Notes: generated by a model from the sequence alone, not told the origin. 4,305 bases of DNA from a virus (IMGVR_UViG_2778261202_000007:1-4305); one strand, 5' to 3'; counted from the first letter of the stretch, positions 1 through 4,305 are shown. Numbers and translations are program-made.

Positions 1-984
1 CTGGACGTCAGCGACACGCTCCGGCGCATGGATGAAGACGTGCGGGCAAAGGTGTATGCGGCGGCGCTGCATACGGTTTACGGTTACATCGATTATCTGG
101 CAATGAACATGCTGCCTGACCTGTGTGATGAGTCCTGGCTGGCGCGACATGCTGCGATGAAACGGTGTCCGCGCAAGGGGGCCACGACTGCCAGCGGGTA
201 TATGCGCTGGGAAGGCGTCAGCGATGGCCTGAAGGTGACCGCCGGGAGTGTTATTCAGCGCGATGACCTGGTTCAGTACACGGCAACTGCCGATGCAACC
301 AGCGCCGGTGGTGTCCTGCGCGTGCCGATCGCCTGCTCAAGTGCAGGCGCGGTCGGTAACGCTGACGACGGTACGTCATTAATCCTGGTCACGCCGGTTA
401 ATGGTCTGCCGTCTTCCGGCGTGGCAGACACTCTGACAGGTGGATTTGATACTGAAGATCTGGAAACGTGGCGCGCCCGCGTCATTGAGCGGTATTACTG
501 GACTCCTCAGGGCGGGGCTGACGGGGACTATGTTGTCTGGGCTAAAGAAGTGCCCGGCATTACCCGCGCATGGGCATACCGTCACTGGATGGGAACGGGG
601 ACTGTCGGTGTGATGATTGCCGGCAGTGACCTGATTAATCCGATTCCGGAAGAATCAACGGAAACGGCGGCAAGACAACATATCGGGCCACTGGCCCCGG
701 TGGCAGGCTCTGATTTGTATGTGTTCAGGCCGGTGGCGCATACGGTGGATTTTCATATCCGTGTGACGCCGGATACACCGGAAATACGGGCTGCCATCAC
801 CGCGGAGTTGCGTTCGTTCCTGCTGCGTGATGGTTATCCGCAGGGAGAACTGAAGGTGTCGCGTATCAGTGAAGCGATTTCCGGTGCGAACGGGGAATAC
901 AGCCATCAGTTGCTTGCACCGGCGGAAAATATCTCCATTGCAAAAAATGAACTGGCGGTTCTGGGGACGATTTCATGGACGTGA
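1..984 (+). CDS. Baseplate J-like protein (Mu gp47 / P2 gpJ family), probably 5'-partial. The frame is open from base 1; the first in-frame ATG is at 28; stop TGA at 982-984.
   Basis: Long GC-rich ORF with no stop between base 1 and 984. The ATG at 28 has no convincing Shine-Dalgarno, so the gene probably starts upstream of the window. The motif WLARHAA...[11 protein letters not shown] is reminiscent of baseplate J proteins, and the gene sits immediately upstream of a gpI/gp48-like gene as in P2 (J-I-H-G) and Mu (47-48-S-U). Its last 10 nt overlap the next start codon. Confidence 0.65.
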
Positions 985-1559
985 CAAACGATGATTACAT
1001 CCGCCTGTTGTCGGCACTGCTGCCGCCCGGTCCGGCGTGGTCAGCCAGCGATCCGGCGATTGCCGGTGCGGCACCGTCATTAACCCGCGTTCATCAGCGT
1101 GCGGATGCCCTGATGCGGGAGCTGGATCCGCGCACCACCACCGAACTGATAAATCGCTGGGAGCGTCTGTGCGGCCTGCCGGATGAATGTATTCCCGCAG
1201 GAACACAGACCCTTCGCCAGCGTCAGCAACGACTGGATGCGAAGGTTAACCTGGCGGGCGGCATCAACGAGGATTTTTATCTTGCACAGCTTGCTGCCCT
1301 GGGCAGACCAGATGCCACCATCACGCGATACGACAAAAGCACGTTCACCTGCTCATCGGCCTGTACTGACGCTGTGAACGCGCCTGAATGGCGGTATTAC
1401 TGGCAGGTCAACATGCCAGCCGCCACCAACACCACCTGGATGGCATGTGGCGATCCCTGTGATTCCGCACTGCGTATCTGGGGCGACACAGTTGTCGAAT
1501 GTGTGCTTAACAAACTCTGCCCGTCGCATACCTACGTAATTTTTAAATATCCGGAGTAA
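975..1559 (+). CDS. ymfQ: Phage baseplate/tail protein, Mu gp48 / P2 gpI-like (DUF2313; YmfQ-like), 194 aa
   Basis: ATG at 975 overlaps the upstream stop (ATGGACGTGA), with GGGGA 7 nt upstream as RBS. The N-terminus [22 protein letters not shown] is recognised from memory as e14 YmfQ-like. Position between the J-like gene and the tail fiber gene matches P2 gpI / Mu gp48. Stop TAA at 1557-1559. Confidence 0.8.
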
Positions 1560-1562
1560 TCC

Positions 1563-2207
1563 ATGCATCGTATAGACACGAAAACCGCGCAGAAGGATAA
1601 GTTCGGCGCGGGTAAGAACGGTTTTACCCGTGGTAACCCCCAGACTGGCACGCCTGCTACCGATCTGGATGATGACTACTTTGACATGTTGCAGGAAGAG
1701 CTTTGTGGCGTGGTGGAGGCATCCGGTGCCAGCCTGGAGAAGGGGCGAAACGACCAGTTGCTTACCGCGCTTCGTGCGCTGCTGTTAAGTCGCAAAAATC
1801 CGTTTGGCGATATCAAATCGGACGGCACGGTGAAAACGGCTCTTCAAAACCTTGGTTTGGGAGAAGCAGCGAAAATGCCTGCTGCGACAGCATTAGCCAG
1901 CAGTGCAGGTAACATCACTATTCCAGTATTAATTGGTGGAGTACAACGAACAGCATTGCTTCAGTGGAAGACGCTATCAGTGCCGCAATCTACCGACGGT
2001 AATATGGTCGTTGTTGATGACTCATGGCCGGTTGCCTTTCCTAATGCTTGCCTTTCCATCAATCCTTCGCTGGTCAATTCTGTGATCTACGCGACTAATG
2101 GAGCCCCTTTTGTTAGCGCAGCGATTGTTGACCGGGTCAAATTCAAAGCCGCTTGCGCATACACGAAATCTAATTCAACAGTGGCAGTATGGGGAGTAGG
2201 ATATTAA
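1563..2207 (+). CDS. stfP: Tail fiber protein in the currently expressed orientation: constant N-terminal part (aa 1-97, to nt 1853) fused to variable C-terminal cassette Sv (nt 1854-2207); 214 aa
   Basis: ATG at 1563 with GGAG at 1553-1556. The N-terminus (FTRGNPQTGTPATDLDDDYFDMLQEELCGVV) resembles the conserved baseplate-proximal region of Mu S / P2 H-type fibres. The left crossover site lies inside the ORF at codon 97 (..QN-L-GLGE..). Sequence downstream of the site is visibly more AT-rich than upstream. Stop TAA at 2205-2207. Confidence 0.85.
   Translation: MHRIDTKTAQKDKFGAGKNGFTRGNPQTGTPATDLDDDYFDMLQEELCGVVEASGASLEKGRNDQLLTALRALLLSRKNPFGDIKSDGTVKTALQNLGLGEAAKMPAATALASSAGNITIPVLIGGVQRTALLQWKTLSVPQSTDGNMVVVDDSWPVAFPNACLSINPSLVNSVIYATNGAPFVSAAIVDRVKFKAACAYTKSNSTVAVWGVGY
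1840..1865. repeat. Left crossover site (pixL-like; hix/gix-type 26-bp site): CTCTTCAAAACC-TT-GGTTTGGGAGAA
   Basis: 12-2-12 architecture. The reverse complement TTCTCCCAAACC-AA-GGTTTTGAAGAG resembles hixL (TTCTTGAAAACC-AA-GGTTTTTGATAA, quoted from memory). It forms a perfect 15-bp inverted repeat with 3670-3684 (TTGGTTTGGGAGAAG). Embedded in the tail fiber coding sequence at the constant/variable junction. Confidence 0.8.
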
Positions 2208-2650
2208 TGGTCGACTATGTATTCAGCCCGACGGAAAATGCTTTTTATCTTGTGGCACTGAAATATGATTATTTAACTGCTGGCACATGGCCGTCAGACG
2301 GCATCAATATAAATGCTGAAGATGCACTGGTTTTCATGGGAAACGCTCCTGAGGGTAAAATGCGTGGCATTGGTGATGATGGGTTGCCTTGCTGGGTAGA
2401 TCTTCCGTCACCTACGCATAAAGAACAACTTGCTGCGGCTGACTCAGAGAAAAAGTCGAGAATTGACCATGCCAACGAATACATGAACGGTAAGCAATGG
2501 CCTGGTAAAGCAGCTATCGGTCGTCTGAAAGGTGAGGAACTGGCACAATATAATTTGTGGCTGGATTATCTGGACGCACTGGAGCTGATCGATACTTCCG
2601 GTGCGCCAGATATTGAATGGCCTACGCCTCCGGCAGTTCAGGCCAGATGA
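2207..2650 (+). CDS. tfaP: Tail fiber assembly protein (chaperone for the stfP-type fibre tip; Mu U / P2 G family)
   Basis: Preferred start is the ATG at 2207, in a TAATG overlap with the fibre stop and preceded by GGAG (2193-2196) and AGGA (2198-2201). The ORF track's in-frame ATG at 2189 is a possible alternative. The C-terminus LWLDYLDALELIDTSGAPDIEWPTPP shares a motif with the opposite-strand chaperone (LDYIDAV..DTSTAPDVIWPELP), which is typical of Tfa C-terminal domains. Stop TGA at 2648-2650. Confidence 0.85.
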   Translation: MVDYVFSPTENAFYLVALKYDYLTAGTWPSDGININAEDALVFMGNAPEGKMRGIGDDGLPCWVDLPSPTHKEQLAAADSEKKSRIDHANEYMNGKQWPGKAAIGRLKGEELAQYNLWLDYLDALELIDTSGAPDIEWPTPPAVQAR

Positions 2651-3224
2651 CATCCGGCGCTGTGCTGGTATCTGTTGCCGTCACCGCGTCAATGTAATCC
2701 AGCACAGCGTTAAGGCGGATTGTTTCTGCCTGCGTCAGCTTCCGTCCGGCCTGTAATTTCAGTTGAATCAGACTGATGGAGGCCATTGCAGTATCAATCA
2801 GCAACGGGCGCTGTGCTTCTGCTGCATCTACTGCTGCGCCGTGCTGTGCCTCGGTATCTGTCACCCATTTCTCACCATTCCATTCATCGTATGGCGTTAA
2901 CGGGGCGATAGTGGTTGTATTTTCAGGATAATCACCCGGAGCTGTGATTTCTTTCGATTCTCCTGTTTCGGTGCTATAGACGATTTCACCGCGATGATCT
3001 GGCACATATTCCCATGAATTTAAATTCACAGAACGACAGATTGCATAACCAACCTTATGTATGCCAGGTGCATCAAGACAGGAACATGCCGGAATACCGA
3101 CACCAACAGCAAGATATTCAGTTGACGTGGAAATATATTCCCGTGTTTCACCATCGTAGTTATAAACGGTAACATCCCCTGCCTTTGTTGCAATAAGCTC
3201 ACTATTTAATATTGCTTTATGCAT
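2622..3224 (-). CDS. tfaE: Tail fiber assembly protein for the alternative (stfE-type) fibre tip, 200 aa
   Basis: Minus-strand ORF whose ATG (top-strand CAT at 3222-3224) overlaps the stop of the upstream minus-strand stfE cassette by 1 nt (TGATG). It carries the conserved Tfa C-terminal motif, and the N-terminal sequence MHKAILNSELIATKAGDVTVYNYDGETREY is recognised from memory as e14 TfaE-like. Its 3' end overlaps tfaP convergently by 29 bp (2622-2650). Confidence 0.85.
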   Translation of the reverse strand: MHKAILNSELIATKAGDVTVYNYDGETREYISTSTEYLAVGVGIPACSCLDAPGIHKVGYAICRSVNLNSWEYVPDHRGEIVYSTETGESKEITAPGDYPENTTTIAPLTPYDEWNGEKWVTDTEAQHGAAVDAAEAQRPLLIDTAMASISLIQLKLQAGRKLTQAETIRLNAVLDYIDAVTATDTSTAPDVIWPELPEA

Positions 3225-3724
3225 CAGGCTGCCCTCACGATATAGTTAAATGCAATATTACGCGGACGGTTTTCGTTTGCAGTTGGAACAACTCTGGAAG
3301 CATCAAATGTTACTCGCTTTGCATAACCACCTTTAATTGAATCAGATGAAGCATCTCCGATGACGCTGGTTGTAAAAGCACCAGAATCAGAAGGATAGGT
3401 ATTAAACCTGACATCCACTAATGCACCAATTATATTTCGAATGGCATCGCCCTGTGATGAAAGCAAGCTACGGTTAGTATCAATTCCTCTTCCGTCATCC
3501 CAGCCGCGAATAAACTCACCACGTAAATCAGGCAATTTATTTGTCGGGTAAACTTTTGCCAGTTCCGGGTATTCTTCAGCAGAAAAAGCCGCACCATTGC
3601 ATTTCAGCCAGCCTGTTGGCGGAGTGGCTGAAGGCCACGGAACAGGGACACCAACAGGTAATGCAGAGCCTTCTCCCAAACCAACGTTTATGAAAATGCA
3701 GAAATAACGAGCAAATGGCATCAT
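3224..3724 (-). CDS. stfE: Alternative tail fiber C-terminal cassette (Sv'), silent in this orientation; the functional part is 3224-3685, fused to the constant fibre N-terminus only after inversion
   Basis: Minus-strand ORF of 166 codons. The right crossover site (3671-3696) lies at codons 14-18 (V-GLGE), in the same codon phase as the left site in stfP. Codons 1-13 (3724-3686) lie outside the invertible segment, overlap the pin upstream region, and have no RBS, so this is a promoterless, start-less cassette rather than an independent gene. Stop TGA at 3224-3226 (complement). Confidence 0.8.
   Translation of the reverse strand: MMPFARYFCIFINVGLGEGSALPVGVPVPWPSATPPTGWLKCNGAAFSAEEYPELAKVYPTNKLPDLRGEFIRGWDDGRGIDTNRSLLSSQGDAIRNIIGALVDVRFNTYPSDSGAFTTSVIGDASSDSIKGGYAKRVTFDASRVVPTANENRPRNIAFNYIVRAA
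3671..3696. repeat. Right crossover site (pixR-like): TTCTCCCAAACC-AA-CGTTTATGAAAA
   Basis: The inner half-site is a perfect inverted copy of the left site's inner half. The outer half-site is degenerate (CGTTTATGAAAA vs GGTTTTGAAGAG; about 6/12 identical ungapped, better with a 1-nt indel). The core dinucleotide AA is the complement of the left core TT, as required for inversion. Located 55-80 nt upstream of the pin ATG. Confidence 0.75.
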
Positions 3725-3750
3725 TCCTGCTTTTGTCAGGGAGCTCTACC

Positions 3751-4305
3751 ATGCTTATTGGCTATGTACGTGTGTCAACAAATGACCAGAACACAGATCT
3801 ACAACGTAATGCGCTGAACTGTGCAGGATGCGAGCTGATTTTTGAAGACAAGATAAGCGGTACAAAGTCCGAAAGGCCGGGACTGAAAAAACTGCTCAGG
3901 ACATTATCGGCAGGTGATACGCTGGTGGTCTGGAAACTGGACCGACTGGGGCGCAGTATGCGGCATCTTGTCGTGCTGGTGGAGGAGTTGCGCGAACGAG
4001 GCATCAACTTTCGTAGTCTGACGGATTCAATTGATACCAGTACCCCAATGGGGCGCTTTTTCTTTCATGTGATGGGTGCCCTGGCTGAAATGGAGCGTGA
4101 ACTGATTGTTGAAAGAACAAAAGCTGGACTGGAAGCTGCTCGCGCACAGGGACGAATTGGTGGACGTCGTCCCAAACTTACACCAGAACAATGGGAACAG
4201 GCCGGACGATTAATTGCATCAGGAGTTCCTCGCCAGAAGGTGGCGATTATCTATGATGTTGGTGTGTCAACTTTGTATAAGAGGTTTCCTGCAGGGGATA
4301 AATAA
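3751..4305 (+). CDS. pinE: Site-specific DNA invertase, serine recombinase of the Pin/Gin/Cin/Hin family, 184 aa
   Basis: ATG at 3751 with GGGAG at 3739-3743 (7-nt spacer). The ORF-track start at 3715 is rejected as an unsupported 12-codon N-terminal extension. The N-terminus MLIGYVRVSTNDQ contains the catalytic serine (Ser10). The body (TLVVWKLDRLGRS, GINFRSLTDSIDTS, PMGRFFFHVMGALAEMEREL) and the C-terminal HTH (GRRPKLTPEQWEQAGRL...VSTLYKRFP) are near-identical in pattern to Gin/Pin, recognised from memory. Stop TAA at 4303-4305. Confidence 0.95.
   Translation: MLIGYVRVSTNDQNTDLQRNALNCAGCELIFEDKISGTKSERPGLKKLLRTLSAGDTLVVWKLDRLGRSMRHLVVLVEELRERGINFRSLTDSIDTSTPMGRFFFHVMGALAEMERELIVERTKAGLEAARAQGRIGGRRPKLTPEQWEQAGRLIASGVPRQKVAIIYDVGVSTLYKRFPAGDK

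What the first reader, a model, noticed from the sequence alone, without database searches (positions are those of the whole stretch)
1563..4305. Complete Pin-type invertible tail-fibre (host-range) switch
Directly visible in the sequence: a serine invertase gene (3751-4305) lies next to a 1.83-kb segment bounded by inverted 26-bp hix/gix-like sites (1840-1865, 3671-3696). The segment holds two convergent modules, each a fibre C-terminal cassette plus its own chaperone (Sv + tfaP on +, Sv' + tfaE on -). The crossover core sits at codon positions 2-3 of codon 97 of the fibre gene and at the equivalent phase of codon 14 of the minus-strand cassette. Inversion would therefore replace the current 117-aa C-terminus with a 152-aa alternative, giving a predicted 249-aa fibre reading ...TALQN-L-GLGE-GSALPVGVPVPWPSATPPTGW.... 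The window captures the stfP-ON orientation. This is a known class (e14 P region, Mu G, P1 C), so it is biologically interesting but not novel.
Basis: partly seen in the sequence, partly recalled or inferred. Interest (0 to 1): 0.6.

Follow-up and report, generated by a model that had tools for sequence, protein, structure and literature searches.

The report
e14 prophage Pin invertible tail-fibre switch
This is the well-known Pin DNA-inversion switch of the E. coli e14 prophage family, which flips a 1.83-kb segment to swap the tip of a phage tail fibre; other sequenced E. coli carry the same sequence flipped exactly as predicted, so the finding is correct but ordinary.

Summary
Two 26-bp hix/gix-type sites (1840-1865, 3671-3696) are the only such sites in the window (0 expected by chance). 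They bracket two convergent modules, each a fibre C-terminal cassette plus its chaperone, next to a 184-aa serine invertase. That invertase is 180/184 identical to K-12 PinE, and its closest solved structure is Mu Gin (E 5e-95). In-silico inversion of 1854-3682 gives the predicted uninterrupted 249-aa fibre.

- **Source:** the window is an exact piece of an E. coli draft contig. It lies in an e14-family prophage at the icd site.
- **Inversion in nature:** another E. coli assembly carries the in-silico-inverted window at 100% identity over all 4305 nt. Two further strain pairs are identical over 16.4 kb except for a perfect inversion between the sites. Among 5426 complete E. coli genomes, 125 match the window's arrangement and 142 the inverted one.
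- **Published experiments:** inversion of the K-12 e14 P segment has been shown experimentally (Plasterk 1985; Goldberg 2014; Kirigo 2025).
- **Still inferred:** Fis/enhancer dependence and a host-range effect. Some carriers of this exact allele are deleted, defective prophages.

Verdict: already known, low interest.

The parts
1..984 (+). 3' part of the baseplate J/gp47 gene (context: upstream gene of the tail operon). The gene starts upstream of the window.
   Evidence: Pfam Baseplate_J E 1.2e-52. It is a 352-aa gene in near-identical loci.
975..1559 (+). ymfQ, a Mu gp48-like baseplate wedge gene (context). It lies directly upstream of the fibre gene.
   Evidence: Pfam Phage_Mu_Gp48 E 8.5e-27. 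190/194 identical to K-12 YmfQ. PHROG baseplate wedge subunit.
1563..1853 (+). Sc: constant N-terminal part of the fibre gene (codons 1-97), outside the invertible segment.
   Evidence: ORF. Residues 1-113 match PHROG tail fibre families, E 6.5e-57. This part is shared by the 214-aa and 249-aa proteins.
1840..1865 (.). Left 26-bp recombination site (pix/gix/hix-type); crossover core TT at 1852-1853.
   Evidence: Natural inversion endpoints fall inside this repeat.
1854..3682 (.). Invertible P-type segment, 1829 bp between the cores.
   Evidence: In-silico inversion keeps the frame. The exact inverted form is found in L018.
1854..2207 (+). Sv: the currently expressed fibre C-terminal cassette (117 aa plus stop).
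   Evidence: Weak Gp53-like_C match at 22.8 bits, below the 24.9 cut-off. No relative with a solved structure.
2207..2650 (+). Tail-fibre assembly chaperone of the Sv module (tfaP position). Its start overlaps the fibre stop (TAATG).
   Evidence: Pfam Caudo_TAP E 6e-29. Coupling shown. Only 66 identities over 148 aligned columns to K-12 TfaP.
2622..3224 (-). Tail-fibre assembly chaperone of the Sv' module (tfaE). Its start overlaps the Sv' stop (TGATG).
   Evidence: Pfam Caudo_TAP E 4.1e-30. 182/200 identical to K-12 TfaE. Coupling shown.
3224..3682 (-). Sv': silent alternative fibre C-terminal cassette (152 codons plus stop).
   Evidence: Pfam Collar E 3.8e-15. Homologous to a phage short tail fibre (9cuy, E 7.6e-30) and to T4 gp37.
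3671..3696 (.). Right 26-bp recombination site; core AA at 3683-3684.
   Evidence: Identical to the K-12 e14 right site.
3683..3724 (-). Fixed 14-codon leader (MMPFARYFCIFINV) that gives whichever cassette is silent its own ATG. It forms the 166-aa stub ORF now and a 130/131-aa stub after inversion.
   Evidence: The exact post-inversion stub, P0003, is in public data. Whether the stub is expressed was not tested here.
3751..4305 (+). pin: serine DNA invertase, 184 aa.
   Evidence: Pfam Resolvase E 1.5e-51 plus HTH_7 E 1.4e-13. 180/184 identical to K-12 PinE. Gin 3UJ3 E 5.5e-95. Residues S9, R7, R65, R68, H106, Q150, R153 and L154 are present.
3769..3836 (.). Putative recombinational enhancer inside the 5' end of pin (inferred).
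   Evidence: Aligns without gaps to the enhancer annotated in P7 cin, at 76% identity against 71% for the whole gene. Candidate 15-bp Fis cores at 3772-3786 and 3821-3835 lie 49 bp apart, and the proximal one is about 95 bp from the right site. The support is not statistically significant.

Best explanation
The window is the tail-fibre end of an e14-family prophage of E. coli and contains its complete P-segment inversion switch.

How it works. The fibre gene is split. Codons 1-97 (Sc) lie outside a 1.83-kb segment bounded by two inverted 26-bp sites. Inside the segment are two convergent modules, each a C-terminal fibre cassette translationally coupled to its own assembly chaperone. The adjacent serine invertase Pin makes 2-bp staggered cuts at the TT/AA cores of the two sites, rotates one half of the synaptic complex and religates. 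This flips the segment. In the orientation seen here, Sc is fused to the 117-aa Sv cassette, followed by the tfaP-position chaperone. After inversion, Sc is fused in frame to the 152-aa collar-domain Sv' cassette, followed by tfaE, giving a 249-aa fibre. The unused cassette is always left joined to a fixed 14-codon leader next to pin.

Shown here: the sites, the frames, the protein families, and that both orientations of this exact sequence occur in nature.

Shown by others for the K-12 allele: inversion in culture, dependent on PinE/PinQ.

Inferred: dependence on host Fis and an enhancer in the 5' end of pin; transcription from the upstream tail operon; and that the two fibre tips recognise different receptors, which in an intact prophage would make this a host-range switch.
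For: - Sites and their uniqueness.
- Frame-preserving inversion to 249 aa.
- Protein families (Baseplate_J, Mu gp48, tail fibre, two Caudo_TAP, Collar, Resolvase+HTH_7).
- Pin is 180/184 identical to K-12 PinE, and Gin scores E 5.5e-95.
- Residues reported as specific to Fis/enhancer-dependent invertases (Hin Q151/R154/L155 and basic residues 47/48/51; eLife 2013) are present as Pin Q150/R153/L154 and K46/K47/R50. H106 is wild type.
- The window is exact in L012, in the e14 context of mcrA, icd remnant and iraM.
- L018 holds the in-silico-inverted window at 100% over 4305 nt.
- The exact 249-aa fusion and the exact stub are in public data. The 214-aa form was read on 24 contigs and the 249-aa form on 14.
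- CH458/CH423 and HE302/YZB902 are identical over 16.4 kb except for a perfect inversion between the sites.
- 125 complete genomes carry the window's orientation and 142 the inverted one.
- Experiments on the K-12 allele are reported in PMC4272514 and PMC12529663.
- A full-length prophage with this switch is present in strain A17.
Against: - There are no population or experimental data for the source strain itself.
- The enhancer is only a positional homologue. Synonymous-site conservation there is barely above the gene average (0.47-0.56 against 0.38-0.43). The degenerate Fis pattern hits 8 places in the window.
- No promoter-like site stands out upstream of pin or of the stub.
- The window's left site has one more departure from the half-site consensus than the K-12 site. 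The inverted form with this same variant does exist.
- Host range is untested. L018 and L015, which carry this allele, have lost head and tail genes, so in those lineages no virion could use the fibre.
Confidence: 0.92

Rival explanations
1. The biologically relevant output of the flip is anti-phage defence of the host cell, not virion host range. After inversion, the fixed 14-codon leader becomes fused to the Sv cassette (a 130/131-aa stub chimera, analogous to K-12 StfE2). That product, or the new Sc-Sv' fusion, masks outer-membrane receptors and blocks adsorption of other phages.
For: Kirigo et al. 2025 report this for K-12 e14: the inversion creates StfE2, which blocks T2 adsorption, and PinQ/PinR/PinE all invert the segment. 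The exact stub chimera of this allele is annotated in public assemblies. Carriers of this allele include deleted, virion-incapable prophages in which the segment has still flipped.
Against: The Sv cassette here is a different allele from K-12 StfP, so the T2 result cannot be transferred. The stub ATGs have a poorly spaced Shine-Dalgarno sequence and no promoter-like site was predicted. No PADLOC model matches any of the proteins. Full-length prophages with the same architecture exist, which fits the classical fibre role. The two roles are not mutually exclusive.
Confidence: 0.15
2. The adjacent pin gene is not the main driver. Inversion is catalysed mostly in trans by Pin-family invertases of other prophages (PinQ of Qin, PinR of Rac, or P2-like or Mu-like invertases).
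For: Overproduced PinQ gave 88% inversion of the K-12 P segment against 49% for PinE. Cross-reactivity within the family is described in the literature quoted. Related invertases are common in E. coli phages.
Against: [quoted passage not shown] The pin gene here is intact with all catalytic residues. The rest of the source genome was not examined.
Confidence: 0.1
3. The switch is a frozen relic. The sites and gene are recognisable but no longer recombine in this lineage, or the inversions seen arose by RecA-dependent homologous recombination between the short repeats.
For: e14 is a decaying prophage in K-12 and in some carriers of this allele. The left site carries an extra mismatch to the consensus.
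Against: Both orientations occur at 100% sequence identity in independent assemblies, which implies recent flips. Orientation frequencies are near-balanced. The perfect repeat is only about 15 bp, generally regarded as too short for efficient RecA recombination (established knowledge, not tested here). K-12 pin mutants are reported to be locked.
Confidence: 0.03

Closest known systems
P segment / PinE switch of cryptic prophage e14, E. coli K-12 (stfP-tfaP / tfaE-stfE-pinE)
   Same: Same chromosomal context (mcrA, icd remnant and iraM downstream), gene order and orientation. Pin is 180/184 identical, YmfQ 190/194 and TfaE 182/200. The right site is identical and the left site differs at 2 nt. 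The 29-nt overlap of the convergent chaperone genes is the same.
   Different: The Sv cassette and its chaperone are another allele: 141 identities over 224 aligned columns for the fibre and 66 over 148 for the chaperone. The middle of Sv' (about 3275-3477) is also diverged. The segment is 1829 bp between the cores; the K-12 P segment is reported as 1797 bp. Baseplate J is not truncated at the K-12 deletion point.
G segment / Gin of phage Mu
   Same: Same architecture: Sc outside; Sv+U and Sv'+U' convergent inside; invertase gene immediately to the right. Same AAACC-NN-GGTTT site core. Gin is the closest solved structure. The upstream baseplate genes are Mu gp47/gp48 homologues.
   Different: The G segment is about 3 kb with much longer fibres (S is 504 aa). 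pin and gin are about 69% identical at nucleotide level. The Mu chaperone genes do not overlap.
C segment / Cin of phages P1 and P7
   Same: Same fibre-swap logic, crossover inside 26-bp-class sites, and an enhancer annotated inside the 5' end of cin that aligns to window 3769-3836.
   Different: The C segment is about 4 kb and cin lies on the other side, next to Sv'. Nucleotide identity is about 71%.
Hin / H segment of Salmonella
   Same: Same invertase subfamily, 26-bp sites, Fis/enhancer control with the enhancer about 100 bp from a site, and the same Fis-contact residues.
   Different: Hin flips a promoter to switch flagellins. Here coding sequence is swapped and no promoter need lie in the segment.

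Membership tests
Fis/enhancer-dependent DNA invertases (Hin/Gin/Cin/Pin) | Small serine recombinase (about 185-190 aa): N-terminal catalytic domain with the Ser nucleophile at position 9/10, and a C-terminal helix-turn-helix domain | tested here: met
   Resolvase E 1.5e-51 plus HTH_7 E 1.4e-13. S9, R7, R65 and R68 are present. Aligns end to end with Gin 3UJ3, E 5.5e-95.
Fis/enhancer-dependent DNA invertases (Hin/Gin/Cin/Pin) | Two 26-bp imperfectly palindromic sites in inverted orientation with matching asymmetric 2-bp cores | tested here: met
   Sites at 1840-1865 and 3671-3696, with cores TT and AA. They are the only matches in the window, with 0.00 expected.
Fis/enhancer-dependent DNA invertases (Hin/Gin/Cin/Pin) | Recombinational enhancer with two Fis sites, located in the 5' part of the invertase gene | tested here: inconclusive
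   Positional homologue of the annotated P7 cin enhancer, 76% identical. Two candidate cores lie 49 bp apart. The synonymous-site test is weak and the Fis pattern is unspecific (8 hits).
Fis/enhancer-dependent DNA invertases (Hin/Gin/Cin/Pin) | Residues that contact Fis/enhancer (Hin Q151, R154, L155; basic residues 47, 48, 51), and wild-type His at the position whose mutation gives Fis independence | tested here: met
   Pin Q150, R153, L154, K46, K47, R50 and H106. The residue list is from PMC3798978. The +1 numbering offset comes from the 1HCR alignment. The role of H106/H107 is recalled from the literature; one search lists a paper that uses Hin-H107Y.
Fis/enhancer-dependent DNA invertases (Hin/Gin/Cin/Pin) | The segment actually inverts, with endpoints in the sites | tested here: met
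   Shown by comparative evidence. The exact inverted window is in L018. Two strain pairs have perfect inversions. 125 genomes carry one orientation and 142 the other. Experiments exist for K-12 only.
Fis/enhancer-dependent DNA invertases (Hin/Gin/Cin/Pin) | Requirement for Fis and negative supercoiling | not testable with these tools
   Needs in vitro inversion assays or a fis mutant.
Mu G / P1 C / e14 P-type tail-fibre switches | Constant N-terminal fibre part outside the segment; two alternative C-terminal cassettes inside, joined in frame by inversion | tested here: met
   The 214-aa and 249-aa ORFs share residues 1-97. Both proteins exist in public data.
Mu G / P1 C / e14 P-type tail-fibre switches | Each cassette is followed by its own fibre-assembly chaperone gene | tested here: met
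   Two Caudo_TAP genes, each with its start overlapping the stop of its cassette.
Mu G / P1 C / e14 P-type tail-fibre switches | The two orientations give virions with different host range | not testable with these tools
   The cassettes belong to unrelated families (weak Gp53-like against Collar), which is consistent but not a test.
e14 element | Integrated at icd, with a duplicated icd 3' remnant and mcrA next to pin | tested here: met
   In L012, which contains the exact window, an HNH (McrA-like) gene, an Iso_dh remnant and a PmrD-family gene (at the position of iraM in A17) lie downstream. The same holds in the annotated strain A17 and K-12.

The most novel reading that the evidence does not exclude
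In this allele the flip may work mainly as a bet-hedging anti-phage device, as claimed in 2025 for K-12 e14. The inverted state would produce a stub chimera (14-aa leader plus the non-K-12 Sv cassette, about 130 aa) or the Sc-Sv' fibre. Either could mask a different outer-membrane receptor and protect against a different set of phages than K-12 StfE2 does. Cassette polymorphism among e14-family prophages would then be a repertoire of switchable receptor shields. The evidence does not exclude this. The switch still flips in virion-incapable deletion derivatives, and the stub ORF is intact.
Probability: 0.1. Interest if true: 0.45.

Novelty: already known. Interest (0 to 1): 0.15.

Why it matters
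The finding matters little as a discovery. It re-identifies the e14 P-segment/PinE switch, described in 1985 and re-studied in 2014 and 2025, in an E. coli strain whose sequence is already public. It does show that the first-stage reader can reconstruct a site-specific inversion system, its crossover phase and its product from raw sequence alone. The predicted product could be confirmed to the nucleotide in independent assemblies. The only mildly useful biology is twofold. The cassette pair here is an allele different from K-12's. The switch also keeps flipping in lineages where the prophage has lost its head and tail genes, which bears on the current debate over whether such switches are retained for host defence.

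Tried and rejected
1. Multi-site shufflon or Min-type system: rejected, because only two sites exist in the window.
2. Test for dual coding constraint on the putative enhancer, by synonymous-codon identity between pin, cin and gin: only marginally higher in codons 7-29 (0.47-0.56 against 0.38-0.43), so not significant. A degenerate Fis pattern is too unspecific, with 8 hits.
3. Promoter/terminator scan: counts are at chance level, and nothing convincing lies upstream of pin or the stub ORF.
4. NCBIfam gave no family for the fibre and chaperone proteins, and only sub-threshold hits for Pin.
5. PADLOC gave no hits. Rfam gave no hits.
6. Solved-structure searches found nothing for the Sv fibre or for either chaperone.
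7. The e14 analysis paper PMC331406 is not held in the library.
It worked through the id P0001 obtained from the cluster look-up.
10. No complete E. coli genome in the collection matches the whole window at 99% or more in one piece; the best was about 95% identity over 95% of the window. The exact source was instead found among draft assemblies.
11. Structure prediction and large homology searches were not run, because the identity of every part was already clear.


Full report
**1. Observation**

ORFs:
- 3' part of a baseplate J gene (28-984)
- ymfQ (975-1559)
- a 214-aa fibre gene (1563-2207)
- a 147-aa gene starting at the TAATG overlap (2207-2650)
- on the minus strand, a 200-aa gene (3224-2622) and a 166-aa ORF (3724-3224)
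- a 184-aa gene (3751-4305)

The two 26-bp sites are 1840-1865 (CTCTTCAAAACC TT GGTTTGGGAGAA) and 3671-3696 (reverse complement TTTTCATAAACG TT GGTTTGGGAGAA). They agree at 20/26 positions, with the core and inner half-sites identical. The repeat finder finds the same pair independently (I1). A half-site consensus derived from gix, cix and these sites matches only these two places with up to 3 mismatches, against 0.00 expected in 200 shuffles. The AAACCNNGGTTT core motif also matches only here. The feature is therefore not a chance repeat, and it is not a multi-site shufflon.

The core TT is at positions 2-3 of fibre codon 97. On the other strand it is at positions 2-3 of codon 14 of the minus-strand ORF, or codon 13 from the second ATG. 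It leaves a 131-aa stub on the other side.

**2. What the parts are**

Family assignments:
- Pfam: Baseplate_J, Phage_Mu_Gp48, two Caudo_TAP chaperones, a tail Collar domain in the silent cassette, and Resolvase+HTH_7 for the last gene.
- PHROGs: tail fibre for residues 1-113 of the fibre, tail-collar fibre for the fusion, and DNA invertase for Pin.
- The active Sv cassette reaches only a sub-threshold Gp53-like_C match and has no solved relative.
- Sv' is homologous to a phage short tail fibre (9cuy, E 7.6e-30) and to the T4 gp37 tip.

Each cassette is translationally coupled to its chaperone, through TAATG and TGATG overlaps. The two chaperone genes converge and overlap by 29 nt.

Pin is 180/184 identical to K-12 PinE and aligns end to end with Mu Gin (3UJ3, E 5.5e-95). 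It has the catalytic S9, R7, R65 and R68. It has wild-type H106. It also has the residues that McLean et al. (eLife 2013, PMC3798978) describe as unique to Fis/enhancer-dependent invertases: Hin Q151/R154/L155 correspond to Pin Q150/R153/L154, and Hin basic residues 47/48/51 to Pin K46/K47/R50. The numbering offset comes from the 1HCR alignment.

**3. Where it comes from**

The window is identical to positions 3-4307 of E. coli contig NMNT01000006.1 (assembly GCA_002468175.1; L012). Downstream lie an HNH gene (McrA-like), an icd remnant, a PmrD-family gene (at the position where strain A17 has iraM) and the ymg/bluF genes. This is the e14 attachment context of K-12.

Gene order and orientation equal the K-12 reference, stfP-tfaP / tfaE-stfE / pinE. 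The cassettes are mosaic relative to K-12. Sv and its chaperone are a different allele, with 141 identities over 224 aligned columns and 66 over 148. The middle of Sv' is also diverged. YmfQ, TfaE and Pin are 91-98% identical.

In strain A17 the same element at icd is a full-length prophage with Q, lysis, terminase, portal, capsid, sheath, tube, tape-measure and Mu-like baseplate genes. The switch is therefore the end of the tail operon of an SfV-like myovirus-type prophage, and K-12 e14 is a remnant of it.

**4. Does it flip?**

This could be tested directly with public data.

- (a) Searching 5426 complete E. coli genomes with the window gave 125 genomes covering at least 80% of it in one place. 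Searching with the in-silico inverted window gave 142.
- (b) Two pairs of strains, CH458/CH423 and HE302/YZB902, have 16.4-kb loci that are 100% identical except for a block of 1881 or 1854 bp that is the perfect reverse complement. The block is bounded by ...AAACCTTGGTTTGGGAGAAG and its complement.
- (c) For the window's own allele, the exact 249-aa fusion (P0001) and the exact post-inversion stub (P0003) exist in public E. coli assemblies. The 214-aa form was read on 24 contigs and the 249-aa form on 14.
- (d) Contig DBFFTA010000052.1 (L018) contains the in-silico inverted window at 100% identity over all 4305 nt.

The crossover can only be placed within the identical part of the repeat (TTGGTTTGGGAGAAG). 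That is consistent with the central TT, though not resolved to it.

Experimentally, inversion of the K-12 e14 segment in clonal cultures was shown by whole-genome sequencing and PCR (Goldberg et al. 2014, PMC4272514). It was also shown by qPCR and sequencing (Kirigo et al. 2025, PMC12529663). The latter paper reports the same repeat (TTGGTTTGGGAGAAGG), 26-30% inverted in wild-type cultures, pinE mutants locked, and 33% of 562 database genomes inverted.

**5. Mechanism**

Shown here: the sites, phase, modules and natural inversion products.

From established knowledge of Hin/Gin/Cin (and references therein):
- Pin dimers bind the two sites and synapse at a Fis-bound enhancer on supercoiled DNA.
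- They make 2-bp staggered cuts through a phosphoserine link.
- One pair of subunits rotates 180 degrees and the DNA is religated. The asymmetric, matching cores enforce inversion.

The enhancer is inferred. Window 3769-3836 aligns without gaps to the enhancer annotated in P7 cin, at 76% identity against 71% gene-wide. It contains two G-N13-C candidate Fis cores 49 bp apart. The TAATG tract lies between them, and the proximal core is about 95 bp from the right site. That distance resembles the roughly 100 bp reported for Hin. A synonymous-site test did not give significant support.

Expression of the fibre from the upstream tail operon is inferred from gene packing. The ymfQ stop and the fibre ATG are separated by 3 nt (stop at 1557-1559, ATG at 1563). 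No promoter-like site stands out.

**6. Function**

The two tips are unrelated in sequence family, so different receptor specificity is the natural inference. In intact relatives this makes it a host-range switch like Mu G.

Among contigs that carry this exact allele, however, L018 has lost about 10.7 kb (portal to tape measure) and L015 has two deletions. The segment has nevertheless flipped relative to the window. So the switch stays active in defective prophages, where a virion host-range role is moot.

Kirigo et al. propose that in K-12 the inverted state produces a stub chimera, StfE2, that blocks T2 adsorption. That reading is not excluded here, but it cannot be transferred because the Sv allele differs. 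The stub start has a poor ribosome-binding context, and PADLOC has no matching model.

**7. Comparison and verdict**

This is the e14 P-segment/PinE system itself, as an allelic variant of the cassettes. It is architecturally the same as Mu G/Gin and P1/P7 C/Cin. The invertase belongs to the Hin/Gin/Cin/Pin subfamily. All sequence-testable membership criteria are met except the enhancer, which is inconclusive. Fis dependence and host range cannot be tested in silico.

Novelty: already known. Interest is low (0.15). The most novel reading still open is a receptor-shield defence role for this allele, at probability about 0.1.

Noticed in passing
window 3600-3692; L020 (HK97) 1501-1593: The non-invertible side-tail-fibre gene stf of lambdoid phage HK97 carries a near-identical site-like sequence (CACAAACC TT GGTTTGGGAGAA) inside the same ...TNLGLGEGSALPVG... 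coding motif. It is 96.8% identical to the window up to the site, and homology stops just beyond the core. The recombination site therefore sits in a conserved fibre-module junction shared with phages that have no invertase.
   Followed up: partly
L018 1-8200 and L015 1-8200 compared with L019: Carriers of the exact switch allele show different stages of prophage decay. L018 joins the large-terminase gene to the DNA-circularization gene (about 10.7 kb lost). L015 has two deletions. L007 keeps the tube, tape-measure and baseplate genes. The switch is flipped in L018 and L015 relative to the window.
   Followed up: partly
window 2622-2650: The convergent chaperone genes (tfaP position and tfaE) overlap by 29 nt at their 3' ends. 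Both strands therefore encode the conserved C-terminal ...WP..P.. tail of a chaperone. K-12 e14 has the same overlap, whereas Mu U/U' do not overlap.
   Followed up: partly
window 1844-1845: The outer half of the left site differs from K-12, CH458, HE302 and A17 at two bases (CTCTTCAAAACC against CTCTCGAAAACC; Glu to Gln in the fibre). This adds one mismatch to the half-site consensus. Inverted copies with this variant exist, so it does not abolish recombination.
   Followed up: partly
window 1868-2370 and 3275-3477: Cassette mosaicism. These stretches have no megablast-level match to K-12 e14, and 3275-3477 has none even to the best complete-genome hits, while the flanks are 90-97% identical. 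This suggests cassettes or sub-cassette blocks are exchanged among e14-family and other prophages.
   Followed up: partly
window 1-3; L012 1-3: The source contig starts only 2 nt before the window, about 73 nt into the baseplate J gene. This is an assembly break, possibly from a repeat or paralogous prophage. Whether the source strain's prophage is complete is therefore unknown.
   Followed up: no
window 3715-3750: The pin ORF can be extended 12 codons upstream to an ATG at 3715, which overlaps the divergent stub ORF start at 3724/3721. The family N-terminus (MLIGYVRVST) and a GGGAG 8 nt upstream support 3751 as the real start.
   Followed up: partly
window 2651-2666, 2802-2817, 2933-2948: Three imperfect 16-nt direct repeats (CAnCnGGnGCTGTGnT) spaced 151 and 131 nt apart inside tfaE. 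A weak terminator-like hairpin lies at 2654-2668, just past the tfaP stop. Both are probably chance: site counts from the scan are at shuffle level.
   Followed up: no
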